From positions 186,001 through 250,000 of the forward strand of contig JAVKOQ020000014.1 in the NCBI GenBank assembly GCA_031835245.2: DNA of 64,000 nucleotides. The letters run 5' to 3'. This DNA is from Balamuthia mandrillaris (Eukaryota). Made by a program: the position numbers and the translations under genes. The notes under the pieces were generated by a model. That model saw nothing but the letters and a program-made list of their open reading frames with translations, searched no databases and was not told the DNA's origin. Shown here one piece after another: positions 44,028-56,095 of this stretch. Numbering within the stretch: the stretch's first letter is position 1; every line of letters starts with the position of its first letter.

Positions 44028-44741
44028 TCAAACAACAGTAACTTCATCCTCGAATGGATCCTGCTTTCCTCCCTCTTCCACTCTTCTTTCCTCTTTCTTC
44101 TTCTCCTCTGCTGTCGTCTTTTTCCTCTCCTCTTGCTTAGGTTGCTGCTGCTCTTTCGGCGCGTGTTGTTGCTGCTGCGCTTCTTCCAGCTGTTGCCTCA
44201 AGCGGCGTATCTCGTTGTCCTTGTTCTCCAGGTTGGCGCGATACTCGACGTACTCCTCCTCCCTCTCCCCTCTCATCCGCACCAGCTTGTAGTTGAGCGC
44301 CAGCAAGCTGCTCAGCAGGAAGATCTGAAAGAGGGAGCCGTAGTTCTGCTGCAGGCGGCGGTACCAGGGCAGGCCCGCTTCCCCGAGGCCAGCCCCGCCG
44401 GTGGCCTTTCGAAGCTGCTCGCGCATGGTCTGGGCCTCTTGGCTGCTCAGATCGATAAATTCAGCGTCGATGGTGGTTCTTGTGGTGTTTTTCGGAGAAG
44501 AAGCGGAAGAGGAGGAGAAATGGCGAGGAGGAGAAAGAGAAAAGAGCTTGTGGTGGGTGCGAGGGGACGAGACAAGAGAAAGAGGAGGAGGAGCAGCGCG
44601 GGAGCCGAGAAGCGAAGAGGCGAAGCGCGAACGCGCAGAAGAGTAAAGCAGAGCAGAAGAGGCAGTGCTTCCTATCATCGACACGCGCTTCGCCGCGGTT
44701 TCTCCGCTCCACAACAACAAAGTACACCGTGGTCGCTGCAT
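44028..44741 (-). CDS. Hypothetical single-TM coiled-coil protein with mitochondrial-presequence-like N-terminus (start 44741 or 44678)
   Basis: Intronless ORF; Arg/Ser-rich, acid-poor N-terminus ending RHFSS; one hydrophobic helix followed by a coiled coil. Confidence 0.6.
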   Translation of the reverse strand: MQRPRCTLLLWSGETAAKRVSMIGSTASSALLYSSARSRFASSLLGSRAAPPPLSLVSSPRTHHKLFSLSPPRHFSSSSASSPKNTTRTTIDAEFIDLSSQEAQTMREQLRKATGGAGLGEAGLPWYRRLQQNYGSLFQIFLLSSLLALNYKLVRMRGEREEEYVEYRANLENKDNEIRRLRQQLEEAQQQQHAPKEQQQPKQEERKKTTAEEKKKEERRVEEGGKQDPFEDEVTVV

Positions 44742-44985
44742 CTCTCTCGAGCGAATCGGTCTCCGCCGGGTTGAAGGAGAGAGAGTTACACTTGGTTTTT
44801 TTTTTTTGGATCCTTCTCCTCTCTTCCTCCTTGGCTTGGTTTTTTATTTATTTTTTCGATTTTTATTATTGTCTACAAATATATATATATTTGTTGTGGA
44901 CCAGTCGACAAAAATGAAAGACGGATTTTTTGTCGACGTTAACGACCCCTCAAGCCCACAAAAAAAGAAAAAAGAAAAACAAAAA

Positions 44986-46925
44986 ATGGCGCACAACGAA
45001 AGGCAAGTGCTCTACGTGAGCAACATCTCACCGGCCGCCGACGAAACGCAGCTCATTTCGTTCTTTTCACAGTATGGCACTGTTCAACAGATCAAACATT
45101 TGGGGTACCGCTTCTTGTTTTGTTTTTGTTTTTTTTGAAAAAAAAAAACACCTCTTCCTTCCAACTAATCTCCAATCGCTCATCTCCCTAACCCTTTTCA
45201 CTACATTCTTTTTGTTGCGCTGATCATCAAACAAAAAACAAAAAAAAAACAAACGAAACTAAAGGAATCCGGCTGTTGGTCCCACTTATGCTTTCATCAA
45301 AATGAGCAGTGCGGAGAGCGCAAATGCTGCCCTGTCCGCCTCGGACACGCCGCTGCTAGGCCAGCCCCTCAAGGTAGTGCTTGCCTCCTCCAACGACATG
45401 CCCACTTTGGCCTCTCCTGCTGTAGGTGGCGGCGGTCTTTTGTCCTCTCCTCCAGGAGGGCTTTTGCCGTTTCCGACCGCTGCTGCGGTTCTTCCTGTTG
45501 CTGCTGCGCCTATTCCCGCGTTTATGCCCTCGCCTATTACTGGGGTCAGTACCAATGCACAGAAACAGGATGAAGTGGCACGTACCGTCTATGTTGGGAA
45601 TGTTAACTCTCAGGTTTGTTGGTTTCTCTACTCTGCTCTCTTCCCTCTCCCCATTCTTTCATGTGGGATTAATGTGGTTTTTTTTAAAAAAATAATTGTA
45701 CAGATAAATGCTGATCAACTGATGGCTTACTTTAGCTTTTGTGGTCCAATCACGTATTGCAGGATGGCCGGTGACGAAAGCCACCCCGCCCGCTTTGCCT
45801 TTATAGAGTTTGCCACAATGGATGGTGCTAATGCCGCCATGCAGCTTAACGGCACTATTTTGATTGATCGCGTTCTCAAGTCTGTCTTCTCTCGTTTTCT
45901 TCTCTTGTTCTCTCTCTCTTCTCCCTTCTGGTTCTCTGCTTCTATGTTTCTCTCTGCTCTTCCTTTTGGTTGATCACTGACTCGATGTTTTGAACAGGGT
46001 GAACCGATCCAAGAATCCAATTGTCAAAGCGCCCAAACAATTAGACCCTCGCAGAGAGGCAAGGATACTCAAACGATTGCGGAGGGCTGTGGAGAAAATC
46101 AATGCTCGCTGTCAAGGTTTATAGTCACTCAACTTTACAATTTTCCTCTCTTTTCTCCTCTCTTTCTTAATTCTCTCTCTCTCTCTCTCCTCTTCTTCTT
46201 CTCGTTCTTCCCTTCCTCCACATATCTGTCATTACTAGAACAAAAAGAATGTTTAAGTGCTTGTGGTTAATGCACAAGAAGGTAGATGATGATTTCACCG
46301 TTGCCAACCCGAAAAGATTTTGCATTCATTTATCTTCTCTTTCCTTCTCTTTCTTCTCCTTTTTTTTTTTCCAAAGATTTAGTTCTTTTAGATGCTAACG
46401 TAATTCTATTTATTTATTTATTTTTCAGCAATTGAGGAAGGCAAGATATCACCTGAAGATGATTATTCTCCCAAACGCTCCCGATCTCGTTCCTCGTCGC
46501 CATCCTCTCGCAGCTCCTCTTCCTCTCGCTCTCCTAGCCGTGAGCGCAAACGACGACGCTCATCTTCCTCTTCAAGACATCGTCATCATCATCGCGATTA
46601 TCGCGACCACCGTGACCGTCATCATCGAAGCGATCGTCATCATCATTCCCGAAGCGAGCGACACCGAAGCGATCGCCATGAGAGCAGTAAAAGAAGCAGA
46701 AGTCACAGAGAGAAAGATAAAGATCGGCGAAGAGAAGACAATGACAGAGATAAGGAAAGAGAACGAAGCAGCAAACGCAGAGACAGGGATAGCGAGAAAG
46801 ACGGACAAAAGGCGAGAGAGAAGGACAGAGAACGGAAACAGATGGAAGAGGAAGAGAACGGAGGAGAACAAATGGACAAGCATCAAGATCATGGCGAAGA
46901 AGCAGCAGAACCCAACCATCACTGA
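44986..46925 (+). CDS. SR-related splicing factor (SREK1/SRSF11-like): 2 RRMs + RS domain
   Basis: VLYVSNISP..., DEVARTVYVGNVNSQ, RMAGDESHPARFAFIEF; last exon is RS/RD-rich. Confidence 0.88.
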
Positions 46926-47305
46926 TTTTTTCTTTTGCTTTTATTTAAAAGAAAAGTCGTTGTTGCAAGTTTACCTGTGTTGCTTTTGCGAAGCGAAGAG
47001 AGATGAAGAGAAGAGAGAAGAGAACGACGAAGAGAATAGAGAACTTACTGAGATAGAAAGGGCAAGGAAGCAAGGGCCAGCGAAAAAAGTCCCAGCTACT
47101 TTTCGGGGAGAAAATTGGTGTCGACAAGAACCAAACCGTTGCGCTTTGGTCAACCTCATACCCGTCAATCGTATCATATTCCACATAACAGGGTATTCAC
47201 CATAGCCAGCGTGAACCTAATATATATAGGGACCACCACAAAGAAAAGAAAAGAAAAAGCCACCAGGAGGAGGAGGAGCATTACCAGAACCTTGTATACA
47301 AACTT

Positions 47306-47345
<40 letters not shown>

Positions 47346-47367
47346 CTTTATGTCAATATAGAGCGAA

Positions 47368-50300
47368 ATGAATTTCTTGCGCTACGTAACAGGAGGAGGA
47401 GGAGGCGGCGGCGGCGGCGTCGCTGAAGAACCTCCTGCCGAAGAGGAAAAGTTACGCCAGCAGGCCAAAGCGGCGTTGACCTCCTCCTCCGCTTGGCAGA
47501 AAACGAACGACAGCACCACAACGCCAACGACAACGAGCAAAACCTTTGGTTCTTCTCCTCGCGCGTCTTTGGAGGAAGCCAAGAAGCGCCAACGGAAAAA
47601 AAAGTCTTCGTCCTCCTCCACTTCGTCGGTTGCTTCCAACGAATCCATTTTTTCTGGGCTCTCCCTGAAGGCCGGAACGGCAACCTCTGCTTCTCCTTCT
47701 GCATCGTCTCTCTCCGCTCTTGGAGATGGAGATGGAGGCGGAGGCGGGAGCTTGTTTTCAGGTTTGGAACTAAAAGACGACGACGAAGGAGAAGGAGAAA
47801 CAGGAACAAACGAAAACGATCGAAAGGAAGACGAAGAAGAAAAGAGTTCAGCATTTTCATTCATTCAAGGCAACAACCGCCAAGGAGAAGGAGAAGAAAA
47901 GGAAGAAGAGCAAGCCGCTTCGGCGTTTTCTTTCATCTGCAAACAAAATACCGTGGCCGACGAAGCGGAACAAGAGATATCCAACCAACATGTGGTCAAG
48001 GTAGAAGTGGCAAAACAAACCACAACTTCTTTTTCTTCTTCTCCTTCTCCCTCAGCTTCCTTCGAAAAAGAAGCCATGAGACGAAAAGAAAAAGACGAAG
48101 CCGAACCAAATGCACAACGAACGGTCGACACAACGAGAAACAACACGACGCAAACAAAACAGCACTCGGTCGTTGTTGTGGCGACCACGGCCAAACGAAA
48201 GACAAAGAGAGCCAAGCGACCGGGTCAGTCCTATCGAACGGAGGAACAGGAAGAAGGAGAGGAACAACAACAACAGCAACAGCCAAGTTTGCAGCAGAAA
48301 GAAGAAACTGAAGAGAGAGAGAACAACAAGACGGCAAAGAAGAAAACGACAGAAGAAACAAGAGATGAAATGAGCGACGTAGCTTCGTTGGGGATGCAAC
48401 AGAACGAAAGAAATAGTGAACGAGAAGAAGCAACCGAAAGAGAGAAGCAACAAAGAAAGAACAAAAGACAACTCGCACGAGCAGATGAAAAAAAAGGTGC
48501 GGAACAGAGAACGACACAACAGCAACAAAAAGACAAAGAGAACTCGAGTAATAACCCCCTTCTGGAATCTGCTCAAGAAGTGGAAAGAGAAGCAAATGCT
48601 CATCAACAAGCGCTGCTCCAACTGCTCCATCAAGAACGTCTTCTGCTTCAACAACGCCACCTGCAAACAACTTCCCTAAAGGAACTACGCCTCGTCCTCC
48701 GACAAACGGAGGCCCTGTTGCAAACTGCTCTATCGGAGCAGGAAGAGGACTTTGCAAGAGCGGAGGAGCTCAGTCGTCGTTTGGAGGAGCTTCAACAAAG
48801 CATTAGAGAGCTCTCACTTCAATCGGTAGAAATGAAAGAGGAGCTTCGCAGGAAGGAAGAGGACAAGCTTCAAACAGTGCTGCGTGAGATTCCCTTTCGC
48901 AAGTTGTTGAGAAAGAGGTGGAGAGAGTTGGAAAGAGAGGAGGAGGAGAAGAGAGCTCGACTTCGGTTAGAAGTGGAGGTCAAGCAATTGAAGGAGAGAG
49001 AAAGAATCAGTCTCGCTCGCAGAAAACTGGAGAGAAAGATGGAGAGAGCAGACGCTCAAGTAGAGGCATTAAAGAAGAAGGAAGAAGCGTTGCGATCCCG
49101 CATTCAAGAACGAACAAAGAACAATGAAGAAAAGCTTCTAGAGAAGGAAAGAAGAAGAAAGGAATTGAGGAAGGAAATAGAAGAGCTATTACGGCTGTTG
49201 AGAGAGAAGCAGGAAGAGGAAGATAGGTTAGAGAAGGAGATAGAGAAAGAACAAAGAGAGATTAGCGCAGTGGAGTCCAAGTTCGAGAAGGAGACCTCTG
49301 CGTTGAAGCAAGAATTGGAGGCGGCCACTGATGTCCAACAGGCGCATGCTCGAAAAATGGTTTCTTCTTTCTTTCATCTTTTACTCTCGTGCATTCGTTG
49401 TTCTTTGTTCTTTCCTCCTTTCTTCATTTATTGTTTTTAACCTCAGATTACGTGATAACGATGCGATAGGCAACATTGGAGGAAGCCACCAAAGCAATCA
49501 ACGAAGCAAAACAACGAATGGAAGCACAGCAAAACCAACAAACAGTCAACATGGAACGGTGGCACTCTCTCAGCGAGGACACCAAACGCTCCATCCAAAC
49601 CCTGAAAGCAATCGAACGACAGTATCGCAAGGCACAAGAGCGAAGAACAATGTTCATCCAATTGGCAATGAAACACCAGAAACAAGAAGCAAAAGCACGC
49701 GAGCAACTGGGCGAATGCGATGGTAGCATTCAGGTACTGACATCGGTGATACTTCGGTTGAATGAAGAGGTAGCGGAACTGAAGCAGTCCATCACGAGTT
49801 TGGAGTTGCGCTTGCCTTCTCTGGAGGCCAACAAGAAATTGGCTGTGTCAGGTTCGTCTTCTGTGGTTCAACATGTTGATTTTCTATTCTGCTCTGACTT
49901 CTGTTCAATAATCATACAATGTTATTCACAGGCAGAAACTTTGGAGAGGCCAAGCGAGTGGCCAACGAGATAAAGGCAGCAACAGAAGAAATTGAAGCAA
50001 AGAAACGACGACTAGCAGAGTGCGAGAATGATATCACCAACAAGACCAAAGCACTGGAAAGCAAACAACAAGAATATCGGGAGTCGGAGGGACGAATCCA
50101 ACAACAAAAGAGAGCCTCAAACATTGAAACCTTGAGGTGGTTGCATGAAACACACCAACTGCTCATCAACCAACTCGAAACATTACAAAGTGAAGAAGAA
50201 GCACAAGAAGATAGATGGAAGATTGAAACGGCGAATCTTTGGCGAGAGGAGCTGCGGTGTGTGGAGGAGGAAATGGGACTGTTGAAGGAAGAGCTTGGTG

Positions 50301-51878
50301 TTGTGAACATTTGTGAAGTTCTCGATCAACAAGTAAAAGAAATAGAAGAAGAGGAACTACAAGAAACTACAAACGCTGATGCGGATGGTGGTGATGAGGA
50401 ACAGGAAGAAACACACAAAGAAACTGACATACCAGAAGAACGAGAAGATGGAGTAGAGGAAAGAATGGAAGGATACGATCACGAAAGTATTCGTGCAGAG
50501 TACGAAACAATAAGGTCCAAAATTGCTGCGCTGGAGACAGAGTTGGAAGAGCAAGTCGCTGCAGAAGACTTTGATGCTGCTGAGGCAACAGACATTCACA
50601 TCAATCGTCTCAAAGCTCGTTTGGCTAAGCTGGAAGAGCTTGTGGTCAATGGCGATAAGGCAAGCGATGGGAACACAGCAGCAGAAGAACAGGTCGAACG
50701 AGAAGAAGAAGAAGAAGAAGAAGAAGAAGAAGAAGAAGAAGAAGAAGAAAAAGAAGAAAAAGAAATAGATGAACAAGAACAAGAAGGAGAAGAAGATAAA
50801 TTCCGGAAAGTTGATTCTGACGAAAGAGAGTTGGAAGATCACAAAGGTCATGAAACGGGCGCAAGAGAAGAAGAAGAAGAAACAGAGGAGGAAGTTCAAA
50901 GAGATAATGAAACACAACCACGAAACGATGAAGAAGAAAATGGAAAGCAAGAACAAGAACCGGGACAGGAGAATGATGAACAAGAACGAGAAGAAGCAAT
51001 ACAGCTAGAAGTAGAAGAATGGCAACAAGAGGGACACGAACAAGAACAAGAACAAGAGCAAGAACAAGAACAAGAACAAGAAGAACAAGAAGAACAAGAA
51101 CAAGAAGAACAAGAACAAGAACAAGAACAAGAAGAACAAGAACAAGAAGAACAAGAACAAGAACAAGAACAAGAACAAGAACAAGAACAAGAAACAAGAA
51201 CAAGAACAAGAACAAGAACAAGAACAAGAACAAGAACAAGAACAAGAACAAGAAGAACAAGAACAAGAACAAGAACAAGAACAAGAACAGCCTAAAGAGC
51301 AAAGAGAAGAAGTAGCAGGAAAGGAGGAAAGAGAAGTAATAGATGACAAAGAATCACGATTGAGCAACGCGAACGACGAGGAACTTCATCAAGGGATATA
51401 CGTGTTGGGAGACGAAGAAAGTGAGGACGAAGTTGATTCTGCGTCTTCGCCTTCCTCCTTGTCAGCTTTCAGCTTTATCAACCACAAAGATGACGACAAA
51501 GAGAACCATGAGGATGACCCGGTATCATCTTCATCGGCTTTCGGCTTTATCAACGATGAAAGTGGAATTCAAGAGGATGAGCATCAAGACGAGAACAGAG
51601 AGGAGGGAAGCGAGGCCACAAGCGTGTTTTCGTTCATTCGAGACCATGAAAATAGCGAAGAAGAGAAGAAAGAAGGCGAAGAACAAGAGGGCGGCATTCA
51701 AGTAACACACGAGCAGGGAAGTGAATCTGCAAACAGTCTGTTTGCATTCATTCAAGCACATGAAAACAGGGAAGAAGAAGAAGGAGAACAAGAAGAAGAG
51801 CTAGCAGAAGAAGAACCGGGCGATGAGGACAACAAATACCAACCCCCATCACTGATTGTACCTTTCCACCCAGAATGA
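47368..51878 (+). CDS. Long acidic coiled-coil protein with UVR (UvrB/UvrC) motifs; apparent +1 frameshift in a repeat at ~51193
   Basis: Exons 47368-~49359, ~49448-49851 and 49932-51878. Motifs EDFARAEEL, KKLAVSGRNFGEAKRVANEIK and AAEDFDAAE; repeated SxF[SAG]FI and S[IL]FSGLxL. Confidence 0.75.
51038..51290 (+). repeat. Coding (GAACAA)n repeat encoding poly-EQ
   Basis: Hexamer array. Confidence 0.95.
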
Positions 51879-52131
51879 AAAACCACCTTCGAGGGCAAAT
51901 TATGTGTCGACATTGGTCACGGGCAACGTGCCCGTTGAAAATCTGTCCAAAGTTCCCATCCGTTTGACGACCACAAGCGGCTCCCATTGGGCGCACCCAA
52001 AGAACAATGCTTTCCTGTCGACATACCAATTCTCATGACGACACGTGGTTTAACCCATCGTTTCTGCATTTTTTTTTTTGGCATAGTTTGGCTGGCAAGC
52101 AAAGCAACACCACCACCACCACAAACCTACC

Positions 52132-54519
52132 ATGGTATGCCTTCCTTTGGGGTCTCTTTCTTCTTCTTGTTCTTGTTCTTCTTGTTCTTCTTCTTGTTCT
52201 TCTTGTTCTTGTTCTTGTTCTTCTTCTTCTTCTTCTTCTTCTTTGTTCTCACATTGTTAAAAAAAAAAAGGAACAACAACCAATGCAACCCTCCTCTCGA
52301 GAGGAGGAGTGCGTGCAAGGCTTTCTGGACTTTGTGAATGGCAGCACGTCCGCCTTCCACGCCGTCCAGAACGCAAAGGACCTGCTCCTGCAGCAAGGGT
52401 TTGTGCAGCTGAAGGAAGGGCAGGAGTGGGAGCTTCGTCCTGGGCACAAGTACTTCCTCACTCGCAACCACTCCACCATCCTGGCCTTTGCTGTGGGCGG
52501 ACGCTACGTAAGTGTCTTTCGTTTTTCCTCATCTTTTCTTCTACTTCTTTGCGGCTACCTTTTTGTTTTTTGTTCAATCGTTTCAGTTTTGCTGCTCTTC
52601 ACTCTTTCTTTGTCTTCATCTCATCCCTCACACACACGTACAAACAAAGGAACCCGGCAATGGCGTCAACATGGTGGGTGCCCATACGGACAGCCCCAAC
52701 CTGAAGGTGAAGCCCGTTTCCCTCAAGGAGAGCAAGGGCTACCTCTGCGTTGGCGTTGAAACCTATGGTGGTGGCCTGTGGCACACCTGGTTTGATAGGT
52801 ATATAGGCATTCTTTGTCTCTCCCTGCTTCTCTGCTCTCTGCTTCTTAAGTGCTATTGCTTACTTTTCTGTGTGGTTAAAAGGGACTTGACGGTGGCTGG
52901 CAGGGTGGTTGTTCGCACTGCTGAGGACAAGTTGGAGCAACGCTTGGTCCATATTCCAAGGCAAGACATACAAATCCGTTCTTCGTTCTTCGTTCTTCGT
53001 TCTTCGTTCTGCTTCTGCTTCTGCTTCTTCGTGTTCTTCTCCCTCAGCTTCGCCTTAACCTTATTCTTTACCTGCTCATTTTTAAAAAGGCCCATTCTGA
53101 GAGTGCCCAACCTGGCCATTCACTTGACATCAGCAGAAGAGCGTTCCGGATTTAACCCCAACAAGCAAACCCACTTGGGTTATCCCATTCTTGCTACTGC
53201 CATTCAAAAGTGCTTTCTCTCTCCCCTTTCTTTGTCATGTTTCTTTGTGTTGTTGTTGTTTGTCCTTCGTAGAGCTTCTATAACCTCACACTTACCTTCT
53301 TGTTCTCACAAACAAAACAGTCAGTTGTCTTCTTCTGGTGGAGTAGAAGGAAAGAAGAAGCACCACCCTATTCTGCTTCAACTCCTGGCCAAGGAAATGG
53401 GCGTTGAAGGTGCTCTCTTCTTATTTGCTTATTTACCGGTTGTTTTTGAGCATTTCTCTTACTTTATCCAATTGTTGCTTTATGTGATGAACAGCTTCTC
53501 AAATCTGCGACTTTGATTTGAGCGTTTGTGACACACAACCCTCCTGCGTGGGCGGTGCCTTTAACGAGTTCATTTTCTCTCCTCGTTTGGACAATCTTCT
53601 CATGTCTTACACCAGTTTAATGGTTCTTTGAGTTATTTTCCTTTTTGTTGTCTTTTTTGAATTATTATTCTTAACTTTAATTCTCGTCTTCTTTTTTTTA
53701 AAGGGATTATTAGAGAGCTTAAAAGGAGACTCTTTGAACGAGGAAAAGCGCATTCGCCTGGTAGCTCTCTTTGACAACGAAGAGATAGGCAGCCAGTCAG
53801 CGTATGGTGCGGCCTCCAACATGATGCAACAGGTTCTCGAGCGGATCATGACGAGCCTTCAGAAGGACAAAGGAGCTTCTTCGGATCATCATCAACGTGC
53901 CTTTGCTCAGAGTTATCTCATATCTGCTGATATGGCCCATGGCATTCACCCTTGTTATCCGTACGTACTCATCTTATTCCCCTTCCAACAGATTGGAGAT
54001 AAGAAAGATACAACAACCATAAAGATCAACAAGAATAAGGCCTCAACGCTTTTTTTTTTCCTAACCTTTTACACAATAACTACAACAAAAGGGAGAAACA
54101 TGATGAGAACCATCAGCCGGCAATCCACTCTGGCCCTGTCATCAAGTACAATGCCAACCAGCGTTATGCCACTACCGCTGTGACAGCCTTTCTCCTCAAA
54201 GAAGTGGCTCGCCGTCACTCAGTTCCCATGCAAGAGTTTGTGGTGCGCAACGACAGTCCCTGCGGCTCTACCATTGGCCCCATTCTCAGCGCCAACTGTG
54301 GTGTAAGAACAATTGACATTGGCTGCCCTCAGTTGGCCATGCATAGCATCAGAGAGATGTGTGGCACTCAAGACTTGGTTCATGCATGCAACCTTTTCAA
54401 GGTTTGCATTTTGTTCCTCTTCTTTGGCTTCTCTCTTGTTCTTTAATTTTACTGACAATGCTCAACAGGGTTTCTTCCAAGACTTTACTGAAGTGGATGA
54501 ATCTTTGGAAGTGGACTAA
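52132..54519 (+). CDS. DNPEP: Aspartyl aminopeptidase (peptidase M18), multi-exon
   Basis: FHAV, GAHTDSP.LK, VETYGGGLWHTWFDRDL, PNLAIHL, RLDNL, FDNEEIGS, SADMAHG.HP, NANQRYAT, PCGSTIGP, LAMHSIRE. Start is either 52132 (ATG-only exon) or 52283. Confidence 0.96.
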
Positions 54520-54584: not shown

Positions 54585-56095
54585 TTAAGAAGCAAAGAAG
54601 AACAACTTTTTTCGAAGAGCTTCTGAATCTGTTGCAGAAGGCGAATTCGTTTGGCTTATCAGTCTGCTCGTTCTTCGTTGCGGTGTTTTTCGAAGAGGAG
54701 ACCGGACAATGGGAGTGAAGGAACCGCCTTCCAATTCTTCAGCTGCAGCAACGCCGCTAATTCTTCTTCGTTTGGTTCGTTCTTGTTCTTCTTTCTCTTT
54801 TGCTTTTTGTGTTGCCGACAACGGTGTTGTGCTCCATTTTTTTGTTGGTGTGTATGTTGTTTTCTTCTTCCTTCCTGTTTCTTCCTTTGCTATTTCTACT
54901 TTGGCTATATCTGTTTCTATCTCTTCTGCTCTTTCTCTCTTTCGCTTTGCCGTTGGTGTGGAGGATGAATGTGAAGAAGATGATGAAGGAGAAGAAAGAA
55001 CGTGAACTGGGACTTGGCGGAGGAACTTATCAGCATTGATGAGACCAGAAGTGAAGTGGTTGAATCGTTTGGGAAGAGGACTTCCATACAACCGCTCGCT
55101 CTCCTTTTTCACTTGTTCTTGCTCTGTTCTCATCCTTTCCTCCACGCGGCGCAGGTAGTCCTGATGCGTGTAGGGTCGTTCTGGCGTGAAACATTGCGCC
55201 GCCCTCTCCAGCTCCTCCTCCGCGATGCTGGCTTGGCTCGCCAAAAGCATTGCGCGTGCTTTTGTAGCACGTGATGATGGAAGGGAGGATGAGGAGGATG
55301 AGGCAGATGATATGGTGGTGGAGGATGAATTGGGAGGTGATGACGATGAGGAGGGCGTGGTGGTTTTGTTCTTGTGATAGGCAGAGAGAGAAGAGGGTTT
55401 CTTGAGGCCTAGTTCGTGGTACAAAAAGTAGAGTGCAGCTGGAGCGTGCGCCTCGAACCTATTCCAGTTTGTTCGATTAGTATTTCTGCATCTTCTTTCA
55501 CTTGCTTTCTTGAAGATCTCCCTTTAAAATAGAAACTAGAAACATACCGTTTACACAGTTGCTCCAAGCAACCGCGTAGGTCCACGCCGGTGGGTTGGTG
55601 CATGTCCAACACAAAGGCGACATCCTGTAGCAGTCCCAGTGCTTCCTGCTGCAGGTGCTCATTGGAAGACGACGAGGAAGAAGAGCATTGCTGCAAACGC
55701 AGCGCGACTTGCTCAAGATAGTCGTTGCATTTTTGGGGGAGCAGCGTTTTGTTGGTTTGGGAGTCTTTGTATCTGGCACGCAATTCTTGCACGGACAGAA
55801 GCGACCCCGAGGCTTGTTCCTGTTGGTCACACGAAGAAGATAAAGAAGAGGAAGGAGGTGTTGTTGCTTCTATCAGATCTTTTGGAGCCGATGGGACTGT
55901 GTTCGCTTTGGGGTGGGCACGCGTTGTATTTAGTTGGATAGGTTCTTTGTCTTCGCGAGAAGAAGTGGACGGAGCTGTGTTAACAAAAGTCGCATCAGAA
56001 GAAGAAGCAGCAGCAGCCTTGGCGCGAAGCCCTCTTTTCGTTCGCTTGGCCAACCTTCGTTTGGGTGGTTTCGAAGACGAGCCGTCAGCCTCCAT
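54585..56095 (-). CDS. Hypothetical basic, S/T-P-rich, probably nuclear protein, 2 exons
   Basis: ORFs join via intron ~55459-55547 (CKR|FEAH). NLS-like KRRLAKRTKR and KRKRE; no recognised domain. Confidence 0.6.

What the first reader, a model, noticed from the sequence alone, without database searches (positions are those of the whole stretch)
47368..51878. UVR coiled-coil protein carries both tepsin-type AP-4-binding motifs repeatedly: candidate new AP-4 accessory/tether
Seen: SIFSGLSL (47644) and SLFSGLEL (47749), plus six SxF[SAG]FI motifs: SAFSFIQ 47848, SAFSFIC 47920, SAFSFIN 51462, SAFGFIN 51534, SVFSFIR 51621 and SLFAFIQ 51735. They sit in acidic disordered arms at both ends of a long coiled coil with UVR motifs. 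Established: tepsin binds the AP-4 beta4 ear via [GS]LFxG[ML]x[LV] and the epsilon ear via S[AV]F[SA]FLN. This protein has no visible ENTH/VHS domain, so it is not tepsin. Inference: a multivalent AP-4 coat cross-linker or vesicle tether. Its RNFxEAxR motif recalls uncharacterised plant/protist UVR-domain proteins, so the role may be widespread.
Basis: partly seen in the sequence, partly recalled or inferred. Interest (0 to 1): 0.82.

Follow-up and report, generated by a model that had tools for sequence, protein, structure and literature searches.

The report
DISC1 homologue with AP-4 docking motifs
This gene is a distant relative of the human psychiatric-risk scaffold protein DISC1, and its floppy ends carry short repeated motifs, shared with relatives in plants and other eukaryotes, that likely dock onto the AP-4 vesicle coat, which would give the DISC1 family an ancient and testable job in membrane traffic.

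Summary
All eight motifs are at the stated coordinates, far above chance. The gene is spliced. It puts the four C-terminal motifs out of frame, is probably an assembly error, and could not be tested.

The protein is a DISC1 homologue, not an orphan. It matches a profile of relatives at 115 bits. That profile includes a near-copy of Arabidopsis Q8L4Q6, a published DISC1 homologue, and its top PDB hit is mouse DISC1 (E=2e-8).

The beta4-type motif lies upstream in 18 of 22 family loci (7 of 9 sequence groups) and 0 of 34 control loci. An amoebozoan tepsin carries the same variants. One paper lists AP4B1 and AP4M1 as direct DISC1 interactors.

Main rival: human DISC1's FSFI is a published LC3-binding motif. 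Ear binding and AP-4's presence in this genome were not testable.

The scan reported this before on three other genomes; those notes gave me the DISC1 lead.

The parts
47368..49359 (+). Exon 1: start codon, low-complexity N-terminal arm (aa 1-395), UVR1 and first part of the long coiled coil
   Evidence: spliced contig covers 47432-49358
49360..49469 (+). Intron 1 (110 nt, GT-AG)
   Evidence: skipped in contig X2 record 10 and in 4 raw RNA reads of X16
49470..49851 (+). Exon 2: coiled coil and first helix of UVR2
49852..49931 (+). Intron 2 (80 nt, GT-AG); splits the UVR2 loop codon
   Evidence: skipped in contig X2 record 10
49932..51878 (+). Exon 3: rest of UVR2, coiled coil, UVR3, acidic tail with a frame break, C-terminal arm to TGA (about 1439 aa in all if the break is an error)
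47644..47667 (+). beta4-type motif 1, SIFSGLSL (I in place of the consensus L)
   Evidence: Vermamoeba tepsin has SIFDGLNT and TLFSGLSL
47749..47772 (+). beta4-type motif 2, SLFSGLEL (strict match to LFxG[M/L]x[L/V])
47848..47868 (+). epsilon-type or LIR-like motif SAFSFIQ
47920..47940 (+). epsilon-type or LIR-like motif SAFSFIC
   Evidence: the C varies to R in X16 reads
48193..48237 (+). Basic motif KRKTKRAKRPGQSYR, resembling the basic-then-GY/GF motif of five homologues and probably the arginine-rich motif of DISC1
   Evidence: arginine-rich motif of human DISC1 described in PMC3900104; the equivalence is inferred
48697..48798 (+). UVR1 (F462 and A465 correspond to mouse Y371 and A374; two-residue insertion in the loop)
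49809..49972 (+). UVR2 across intron 2 (RLPSLEANKKLAVSG/RNFGEAKRVANEI); 14 of 28 residues identical to mouse DISC1 without gaps
   Evidence: spliced sequence read against the 9rux alignment; residue numbers
50522..50623 (+). UVR3 (VAAEDFDAA)
   Evidence: (Pfam UVR E=2.1)
51036..51290 (+). GAACAA/GAA repeat encoding poly-E/Q
51192..51194 (+). Frame break: AAA where the 36 other units have AA; probable assembly error, untested
   Evidence: not covered
51462..51482 (+). epsilon-type or LIR-like motif SAFSFIN (beyond the break)
51534..51554 (+). epsilon-type or LIR-like motif SAFGFIN (beyond the break)
   Evidence: Vermamoeba tepsin SAFNFIND
51621..51641 (+). epsilon-type or LIR-like motif SVFSFIR (beyond the break); human DISC1 has SSFSFIR
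51735..51755 (+). epsilon-type or LIR-like motif SLFAFIQ (beyond the break)

Best explanation
The gene encodes a DISC1-family scaffold whose disordered arms carry repeated short motifs that likely bind the beta4 and epsilon ear domains of the AP-4 adaptor, so that it would act as a multivalent AP-4 accessory at the trans-Golgi network. Shown: a spliced gene, DISC1 family membership, three UVR-like hairpin motifs, and conservation of the motifs in distant homologues. Inferred from mouse DISC1: UVR1 and UVR2 of neighbouring chains interlock into a dimer of dimers. A tetramer would then display up to 8 beta4-type and 24 epsilon-type motifs, or 8 and 8 if the frame break is real. Inferred from tepsin: each weak motif-ear contact adds up by avidity only where AP-4 is concentrated on a membrane, so the protein would cluster AP-4 or hold AP-4 vesicles and link them to other partners through its coiled coils and basic motif. 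The same motifs may also bind ATG8/LC3 at a later step, as reported for tepsin and human DISC1.
For: Family. The spliced protein scores 115 bits over profile positions 13-528 of 573 against a profile with no window rows; 300 heptad-block shuffles reach at most -33.5 and 300 local shuffles -126.5. That profile's top PDB hit is mouse DISC1 9rux, E=2.2e-8, next hit 6e-4, with UVR1 and UVR2 in order. One profile member, L068, clusters at 90% with Q8L4Q6, which PMC13273187 names as a DISC1 homologue. The Atlas returned a DISC1 cluster unprompted, 0.83 with 179 shared features, a lead only. The distance between the two UVR Phe residues is 333 here and 333, 333, 333, 331, 326 and 324 in six homologues.

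Motifs. A beta4-type motif lies upstream on the sense strand in 18 of 22 family loci and 0 of 34 non-family loci from the same scan. The 22 loci form 9 sequence groups, 7 with the motif; the two groups without it run into a contig end. Epsilon-type motifs occur in L007 (4) and L063 (2), next to a beta4-type motif. Parachlorella P0018 has DLFSGLDL and a terminal DLFAGLNL. Q8L4Q6 DSLFEGMELF matches human tepsin DSLFAGMELV at 8 of 10. Vermamoeba tepsin carries SAFNFIND, SIFDGLNT and TLFSGLSL, so the I-for-L departures occur in a tepsin its authors accepted. Arcella tepsin SLFGGLN equals the start of L007. On a divergent contig of run X1, the 4 listed changes inside the two beta4-type motifs are 3 silent and one S to G, while 7 of 9 in the linker change the residue (small numbers, and only 40 of 110 differences were shown).

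Literature. [quoted passage not shown]
Against: No binding was tested or modelled, and AP-4 could not be sought in this genome. The FSFI of human DISC1 is reported in two papers as a LIR whose mutation abolishes or nearly abolishes LC3 binding. All eight window motifs contain an F-x-x-[LI] LIR core. The plant loci have no SxF[SAG]F[LIVM] motif, so the two-motif arrangement is not universal. Carpediemonas epsins carry DAFSFIQ and DAFAFLS, although Carpediemonas-like organisms are reported to lack AP-4, so the epsilon-type string is not AP-4-specific. DISC1 is absent from the HeLa AP-4 proteomics tables and from a tepsin TAP-MS list. It is also absent from the whole-cell proteome table, so that blank is weak. 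The evidence behind the AP4B1/AP4M1 listing was not visible, and a DISC1-partner review does not mention AP-4. Four of the eight motifs depend on the frame break being an error.
Confidence: 0.6

Rival explanations
1. The motifs are ATG8/LC3-interacting (LIR) motifs only. The protein is a DISC1-family multivalent autophagy receptor or scaffold, and the likeness to tepsin reflects shared LC3 binding.
For: Human DISC1 210-FSFI-213 binds LC3, and FSFI-to-AAAA removes binding (PMC6351828; PMC12595038). The human peptide SSFSFIR closely matches SVFSFIR here. All eight motifs fit [WFY]xx[LIV], and the C-terminal ones lie in acidic sequence. Tepsin's beta4 motif overlaps its LC3B site IV.
Against: A LIR does not need the second Phe and upstream Ser of SxFxFI, nor the Leu, Gly and final [LV] of LFxG[ML]x[LV], yet these are the conserved positions. 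Several plant copies end the core in M (FEGM), and one L007 copy is FSFM. The four-alanine mutants in the LC3 papers would also destroy an ear-binding motif. AP4B1 is listed as a DISC1 interactor.
Confidence: 0.17
2. The motifs bind a different adaptor appendage (AP-1, AP-2, AP-3 or another coat), so the protein is a coat accessory but not AP-4-specific.
For: Similar strings occur in Carpediemonas epsins from a group reported to lack AP-4. Entamoeba epsin has DLFAGLSA, a partial match. Appendage-binding motifs of different adaptors are all short and Phe-rich (recalled).
Against: The beta4-type motif matches the published beta4 consensus in full and human tepsin at 8 of 10 in the plant homologue. 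The only adaptor subunits seen in the displayed part of the DISC1 interactor table are AP4B1 and AP4M1 (the table was cut in view).
Confidence: 0.1
3. The protein does the generic DISC1 job (oligomeric hub for motor or centrosome partners), and the motifs bind an unrelated partner or have no role.
For: The best-characterised DISC1 partners bind coiled coils, such as NDE1 and ATF4. The structure paper never mentions AP-4, adaptor or vesicle. One homologue, P0017, has neither motif, although it may be N-terminally incomplete.
Against: The motifs are conserved in poorly conserved arms across plants, a green alga and two unidentified eukaryotes, against 0 of 34 controls. Two different tepsin-like motifs co-occur in this protein, L007 and L063.
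Confidence: 0.08
4. The frame break is real in this isolate. The protein then ends at 1245 aa with a Thr-Arg repeat tail and has only the four N-terminal motifs. This concerns the gene model and is compatible with any of the functions above.
For: The assembly reads this way, and no read or contig bridged the repeat.
Against: The extra base is in an A run, in 1 of 37 units. The downstream frame stays open for 227 codons, and 8 of its 9 Phe are in motifs. The region is on X2 record 12 at depth 90.5, against 76.5 and 119.9 upstream. Another sample shows a 9-base in-frame insertion near the stop.
Confidence: 0.07

Closest known systems
DISC1 (mouse core, PDB 9rux; PMC13273187) and its eukaryote-wide homologues (Arabidopsis Q8L4Q6, Dictyostelium Q550K0, T. 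brucei Q57ZU7)
   Same: Disordered N-terminal arm, UVR1 and UVR2 in order within a long coiled coil, conserved interface aromatics and alanines, an SxFSFI motif, and a basic N-terminal motif.
   Different: About 1440 aa. UVR1-UVR2 spacing is 333, as in plants, against 227 in mouse (Y371 to F598). It has a third UVR-like motif and a long acidic C-terminal arm. It has six SxFxFI copies and two beta4-type motifs; human DISC1 has the one FSFI reported, and whether it has a beta4-type motif was not tested.
Tepsin (ENTHD2), AP-4 accessory protein
   Same: Two kinds of short motif in disordered sequence, matching the beta4-ear consensus and resembling the epsilon-ear motif; multiple copies, as in protist tepsins; possible dual use for LC3.
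   Different: No ENTH or VHS domain (no Pfam hit on any exon). The folded part is a UVR coiled-coil core, predicted to oligomerise. Motifs are at both ends.
RUSC1/2 and Hook1/2 (FHF), coiled-coil AP-4 accessories that link vesicles to motors
   Same: Possible role as a link between AP-4 vesicles and transport machinery.
   Different: Hook binds mu4 through coiled coils, not the ears. No RUN or Hook domain was found.
LIR-bearing autophagy receptors
   Same: F-x-x-[LI] cores in acidic disordered sequence; human DISC1 FSFI binds LC3.
   Different: The conserved positions extend beyond the LIR core.

Membership tests
DISC1 family | Sequence homology of the core to DISC1 | tested here: met
   115 bits against the family profile; profile's top PDB hit is mouse DISC1, E=2.2e-8, and E=6.1e-7 with window rows included; family includes the Q8L4Q6 cluster. 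Direct phmmer of exon 3 alone found nothing.
DISC1 family | Two or more UVR repeats with the interface residues (mouse Y371/A374, F598/A601) | tested here: met
   F462/A465 and F795/A798; 14 of 28 identical around UVR2. A profile of the UVR1/3/4 repeats alone hit nothing in PDB at E<=0.01, and Pfam UVR is below cut-off on the window but above it in P0002 and P0003.
DISC1 family | Disordered N-terminal arm with FSFI-type and basic motifs | tested here: met
   equivalence of the basic motif is inferred, not aligned to the human sequence
DISC1 family | Homotetramer through UVR1-UVR2 contacts | not tested
   Inferred from PMC13273187; no model was run, and UVR2 spans an intron
DISC1 family | C-terminal NDE1/ATF4-binding hairpin (DISC1-C) | tested here: inconclusive
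   No DISC1-C chain among PDB hits; Atlas cluster with PF28234 DISC1_C at 0.83 is a lead only
[quoted passage not shown]
   No Pfam hit on four pieces covering the gene; the core is DISC1-type
AP-4 ear-binding accessory | beta4 motif LFxG[M/L]x[L/V] | tested here: met
   1 strict and 1 I-variant copy; consensus read in PMC13335578; conserved in 7 of 9 groups
   0 of 6 exact, 4 of 6 fit S[AV]F[SA]F[LI]; an I variant occurs in an amoebozoan tepsin but also in Carpediemonas epsins
AP-4 ear-binding accessory | Physical binding to the ears and AP-4-dependent membrane recruitment | not testable with these tools
   No ear-domain sequence was available as a session protein; only the interactor listing for human DISC1
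AP-4 ear-binding accessory | AP-4 encoded in the same genome | not testable with these tools
   No genome held
LIR-type ATG8 binder | [WFY]xx[LIV] core in acidic disordered sequence | tested here: met
   All eight motifs contain the core; definition; binding not tested

The most novel reading that the evidence does not exclude
The ancestral, eukaryote-wide job of the DISC1 family is to be a tetrameric, multivalent scaffold of the AP-4 coat. It would cross-link AP-4 ears at a spacing set by a conserved 324-333-residue coiled coil and hand AP-4/ATG9 vesicles on to motors or to ATG8. This would tie DISC1 biology to AP-4 deficiency syndrome and supply an outer scaffold for a coat that does not bind clathrin in mammals.
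Probability: 0.3. Interest if true: 0.88.

Novelty: new member of a known kind. Interest (0 to 1): 0.64.

Why it matters
DISC1 has many reported partners but no agreed core function, and its homologues in plants and amoebae have no neurons. AP-4 loss causes a childhood spastic paraplegia, and few AP-4 accessories are known (tepsin, RUSC1/2, Hook1/2). If the conserved motifs bind AP-4 ears, the two fields connect through a short peptide that can be tested in vitro. The link would explain an overlooked listing of AP4B1 and AP4M1 as DISC1 interactors, and it would call for re-reading the FSFI-to-AAAA 'LIR' mutants, which would also lose ear binding. The gene itself is an ordinary new member of a known family. 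The value lies in the functional hypothesis, which this copy shows clearly because it repeats both motifs.

Tried and rejected
Searches with single exons found nothing: word-indexed searches, phmmer against 1.84 billion representatives, PDB, Pfam (only generic coiled-coil hits), and the Atlas on exon 1 (generic coiled coils). The conserved UVR2 is split by an intron, which explains the blanks; they are not evidence that the protein is an orphan. The profile search with A1 returned only 3 proteins and no animal DISC1. The UVR-repeat profile hit nothing in PDB at E<=0.01, so I could not show that UVR3 corresponds to DISC1-C.

Both read lays skipped the repeat. An intron removing the repeat looks unlikely: the repeat has no GT, and X2 record 11 runs unspliced to 51025. 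No listed holder was on record as RNA, but the X2 contig is spliced at both introns. No genome was held. No structure or complex job was sent, because no AP-4 ear or ATG8 sequence was available and the family was settled by sequence.

Of the 117 pattern loci, 40 scored as family (58 bits or more; next 13.8) and 77 did not. The motif count used only loci with at least 1500 nt upstream: 22 of 40 family and 34 of 77 others. Four antisense beta-type hits in family loci are one shared site in one group, which shows the chance background is not zero.

Literature searches for a mechanistic DISC1-AP-4 link: DISC1 with AP-4 or tepsin, DISC1 with AP4B1/AP4E1/AP4M1/interactome, DISC1 with AP-4/trans-Golgi/ATG9A, DISC1 with SF-rich, At5g25070. 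Among the listed results, only the interactor table turned up. The library lacks most subscription papers, and only the top 20-30 of 45-160 hits were listed. Mattera 2015, Frazier 2016, Sanchez-Pulido and Ponting 2011 and Soares 2011 were not held. The earlier scan notes call the link unreported or untested; the Teng et al. table qualifies that.
Full report
Observation. The eight motifs lie at the coordinates given. The gene has three exons: 47368-49359, 49470-49851 and 49932-51878. Contig X2 record 10 skips both GT-AG introns with no mismatches, and 4 raw RNA reads of X16 cross intron 1. In 20,000 shuffles of the two arms, SxFxF[ILVM] (6 observed) never exceeded 1, S[AV]F[SA]F[LI] (4 observed) never occurred, and the strict beta4 consensus (1 observed) had P=5e-5. 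14 of 19 Phe in the arms are in the motifs. The patterns are partly post hoc, so conservation is the better test.

The spliced CDS is 4321 nt, one more than a multiple of three. One GAAACAA among 36 GAACAA units (51192-51194) shifts the frame to a stop at 51293. As written, the four C-terminal motifs are not part of the protein. An assembly error is the likely cause: the extra base is in an A run, the downstream frame is open for 227 codons, the region is on an X2 contig of similar depth, and another sample has an in-frame 9-base insertion near the stop. No read or contig bridged the repeat, so this is untested.

What it is. Single-exon searches were blank. Earlier notes of this scan on three other genomes suggested DISC1, and I tested that. 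A DNA pattern for the junction motif gave 117 metagenome loci, 40 of which form one family. L068 falls in the 90% cluster of Arabidopsis Q8L4Q6, listed as a DISC1 homologue in PMC13273187. A profile of eight family rows without the window hits mouse DISC1 (9rux) first, E=2.2e-8 against 6e-4 for the next chain, with both UVR motifs in order. The spliced window protein matches that profile at 115 bits along nearly its full length, while heptad-preserving shuffles reach -33.5 at best. Around UVR2 it shares 14 of 28 residues with mouse DISC1, including the positions of S594, G595, F598, A601, K602 and E607. The Atlas also listed a DISC1 cluster for exon 3, as a lead. The loci were selected on the UVR2 motif, so similarity there is partly built in; the full-length match and the PDB hit are not. 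The spacing between the UVR Phe residues is 333 here and 324-333 in six homologues, against 227 in mouse. This supports the gene model and hints at a length constraint.

Conservation of the motifs. Homologues were found through UVR2, about 1.7-3.3 kb from the motifs. A beta4-type motif lies upstream on the sense strand in 18 of 22 family loci and 0 of 34 other loci (loci with under 1500 nt upstream were left out). The 22 loci are 9 sequence groups, 7 positive. L025 and L066 are negative but end at a contig edge, and L019 and L039 are negative members of a positive group. Epsilon-type motifs occur in L007 (4) and L063 (2) and in none of the plant-type loci. P0018 has beta4-type motifs at both ends, and P0017 has none. 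In Table S3 of PMC12517565, Vermamoeba tepsin has SAFNFIND, SIFDGLNT and TLFSGLSL, Arcella tepsin has SLFGGLN, and human tepsin has DSLFAGMELV against Q8L4Q6 DSLFEGMELF. The departures from the human consensus are therefore within tepsin's range. Against specificity, two Carpediemonas epsins have DAFSFIQ and DAFAFLS, in a group reported to lack AP-4.

Literature. PMC5984079 lists AP4B1 and AP4M1, but not AP4E1 or AP4S1, among 56 direct DISC1 interactors; the underlying evidence was not visible. DISC1 is not in the HeLa AP-4 proteomics tables (one file cut) or in a tepsin TAP-MS list. It is also missing from the whole-cell table, so those blanks say little. Human DISC1 210-FSFI-213, in the peptide SAFTSSFSFIR, is published as a LIR that binds LC3. 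Tepsin's beta4 motif overlaps an LC3B site, so dual use has precedent.

Mechanism. Shown: gene, family and conserved motifs. Inferred: tetramer formation through UVR1-UVR2 contacts as in mouse, display of many low-affinity motifs, avid binding to AP-4 ears on trans-Golgi membranes, and clustering of the coat or coupling of AP-4 vesicles to other partners. I put AP-4 ear binding as the main role at 0.6, LIR only at 0.17, another adaptor at 0.10 and an unrelated role at 0.08. The separate question of a real truncation is at 0.07. I did not determine the organism, and AP-4 could not be sought in its genome.

What I saw of each paper. PMC13273187: abstract, introduction, first two results sections, most of the discussion, and a term search. 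PMC5984079: passages, part of Table 1, supplement rows. PMC6351828, PMC12595038, PMC3900104, PMC13335578, PMC11064669, PMC6627992, PMC12323583, PMC6999640 and PMC3275753: passages only. PMC7185972: passages and supplement search. PMC12517565: outline, section 11 and supplement rows (cells cut at about 400 letters, file cut when stored, four files not searched). PMC6160451 and PMC8881493: supplement searches only. Mattera 2015, Frazier 2016, Sanchez-Pulido and Ponting 2011 and Soares 2011: nothing seen. The epsilon consensus S[AV]F[SA]FLN is recalled; the beta4 consensus was read. Supplements I could not see, including AP-4 epsilon TAP-MS lists and bioRxiv files such as the Arabidopsis coated-vesicle proteome, may bear on the link.

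Verdict. A new member of the DISC1 family, with good sequence evidence for a tepsin-like AP-4-binding role. I found no mechanistic description of that role in the searches named under Tried and rejected. Interest 0.64.

Noticed in passing
window 45138-46925 (+): Upstream neighbour: intron-containing RRM protein with an RS-rich tail (Pfam RRM_1 E=8e-13), SR-like splicing factor.
   Followed up: partly
window 52282-54446 (+): Downstream neighbour: M18 aspartyl aminopeptidase, several introns (Pfam Peptidase_M18 E=3.6e-44 on the last piece).
   Followed up: partly
window 44031-44765 (-) and 54588-55280 (-): Two short intronless-looking ORFs with no Pfam family above cut-off.
   Followed up: no
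window aa 462-795; P0002, P0003, P0004, P0006, P0017, P0018: UVR1-to-UVR2 spacing is 324-333 residues in all seven non-animal members checked (exactly 333 in four) against 227 in mouse DISC1, which suggests a conserved ruler that was shortened in animals.
   Followed up: partly
L007:767-1123 (-): This homologue has four UVR-like repeats, two of them in tandem at the C-terminal side.
   Followed up: partly
L013, L019, L039, L046: Several plant-type loci of one data set hold altered or interrupted copies of the family; L019 and L039 lack the upstream motif.
   Followed up: no
PMC12517565 Table S3, rows 4323 and 4248: A Phytophthora protein (XP_002999163) and a Mataza protein, both weak hits to the AP4-beta profile, carry SAFGFIG or AFNFIS motifs in disordered sequence; possible further carriers of the tepsin-type motif.
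   Followed up: no
run X1 laid on window 47100-52100: A second, divergent set of contigs at about a third of the depth differs from the window at many sites: a second allele, strain or copy.
   Followed up: partly
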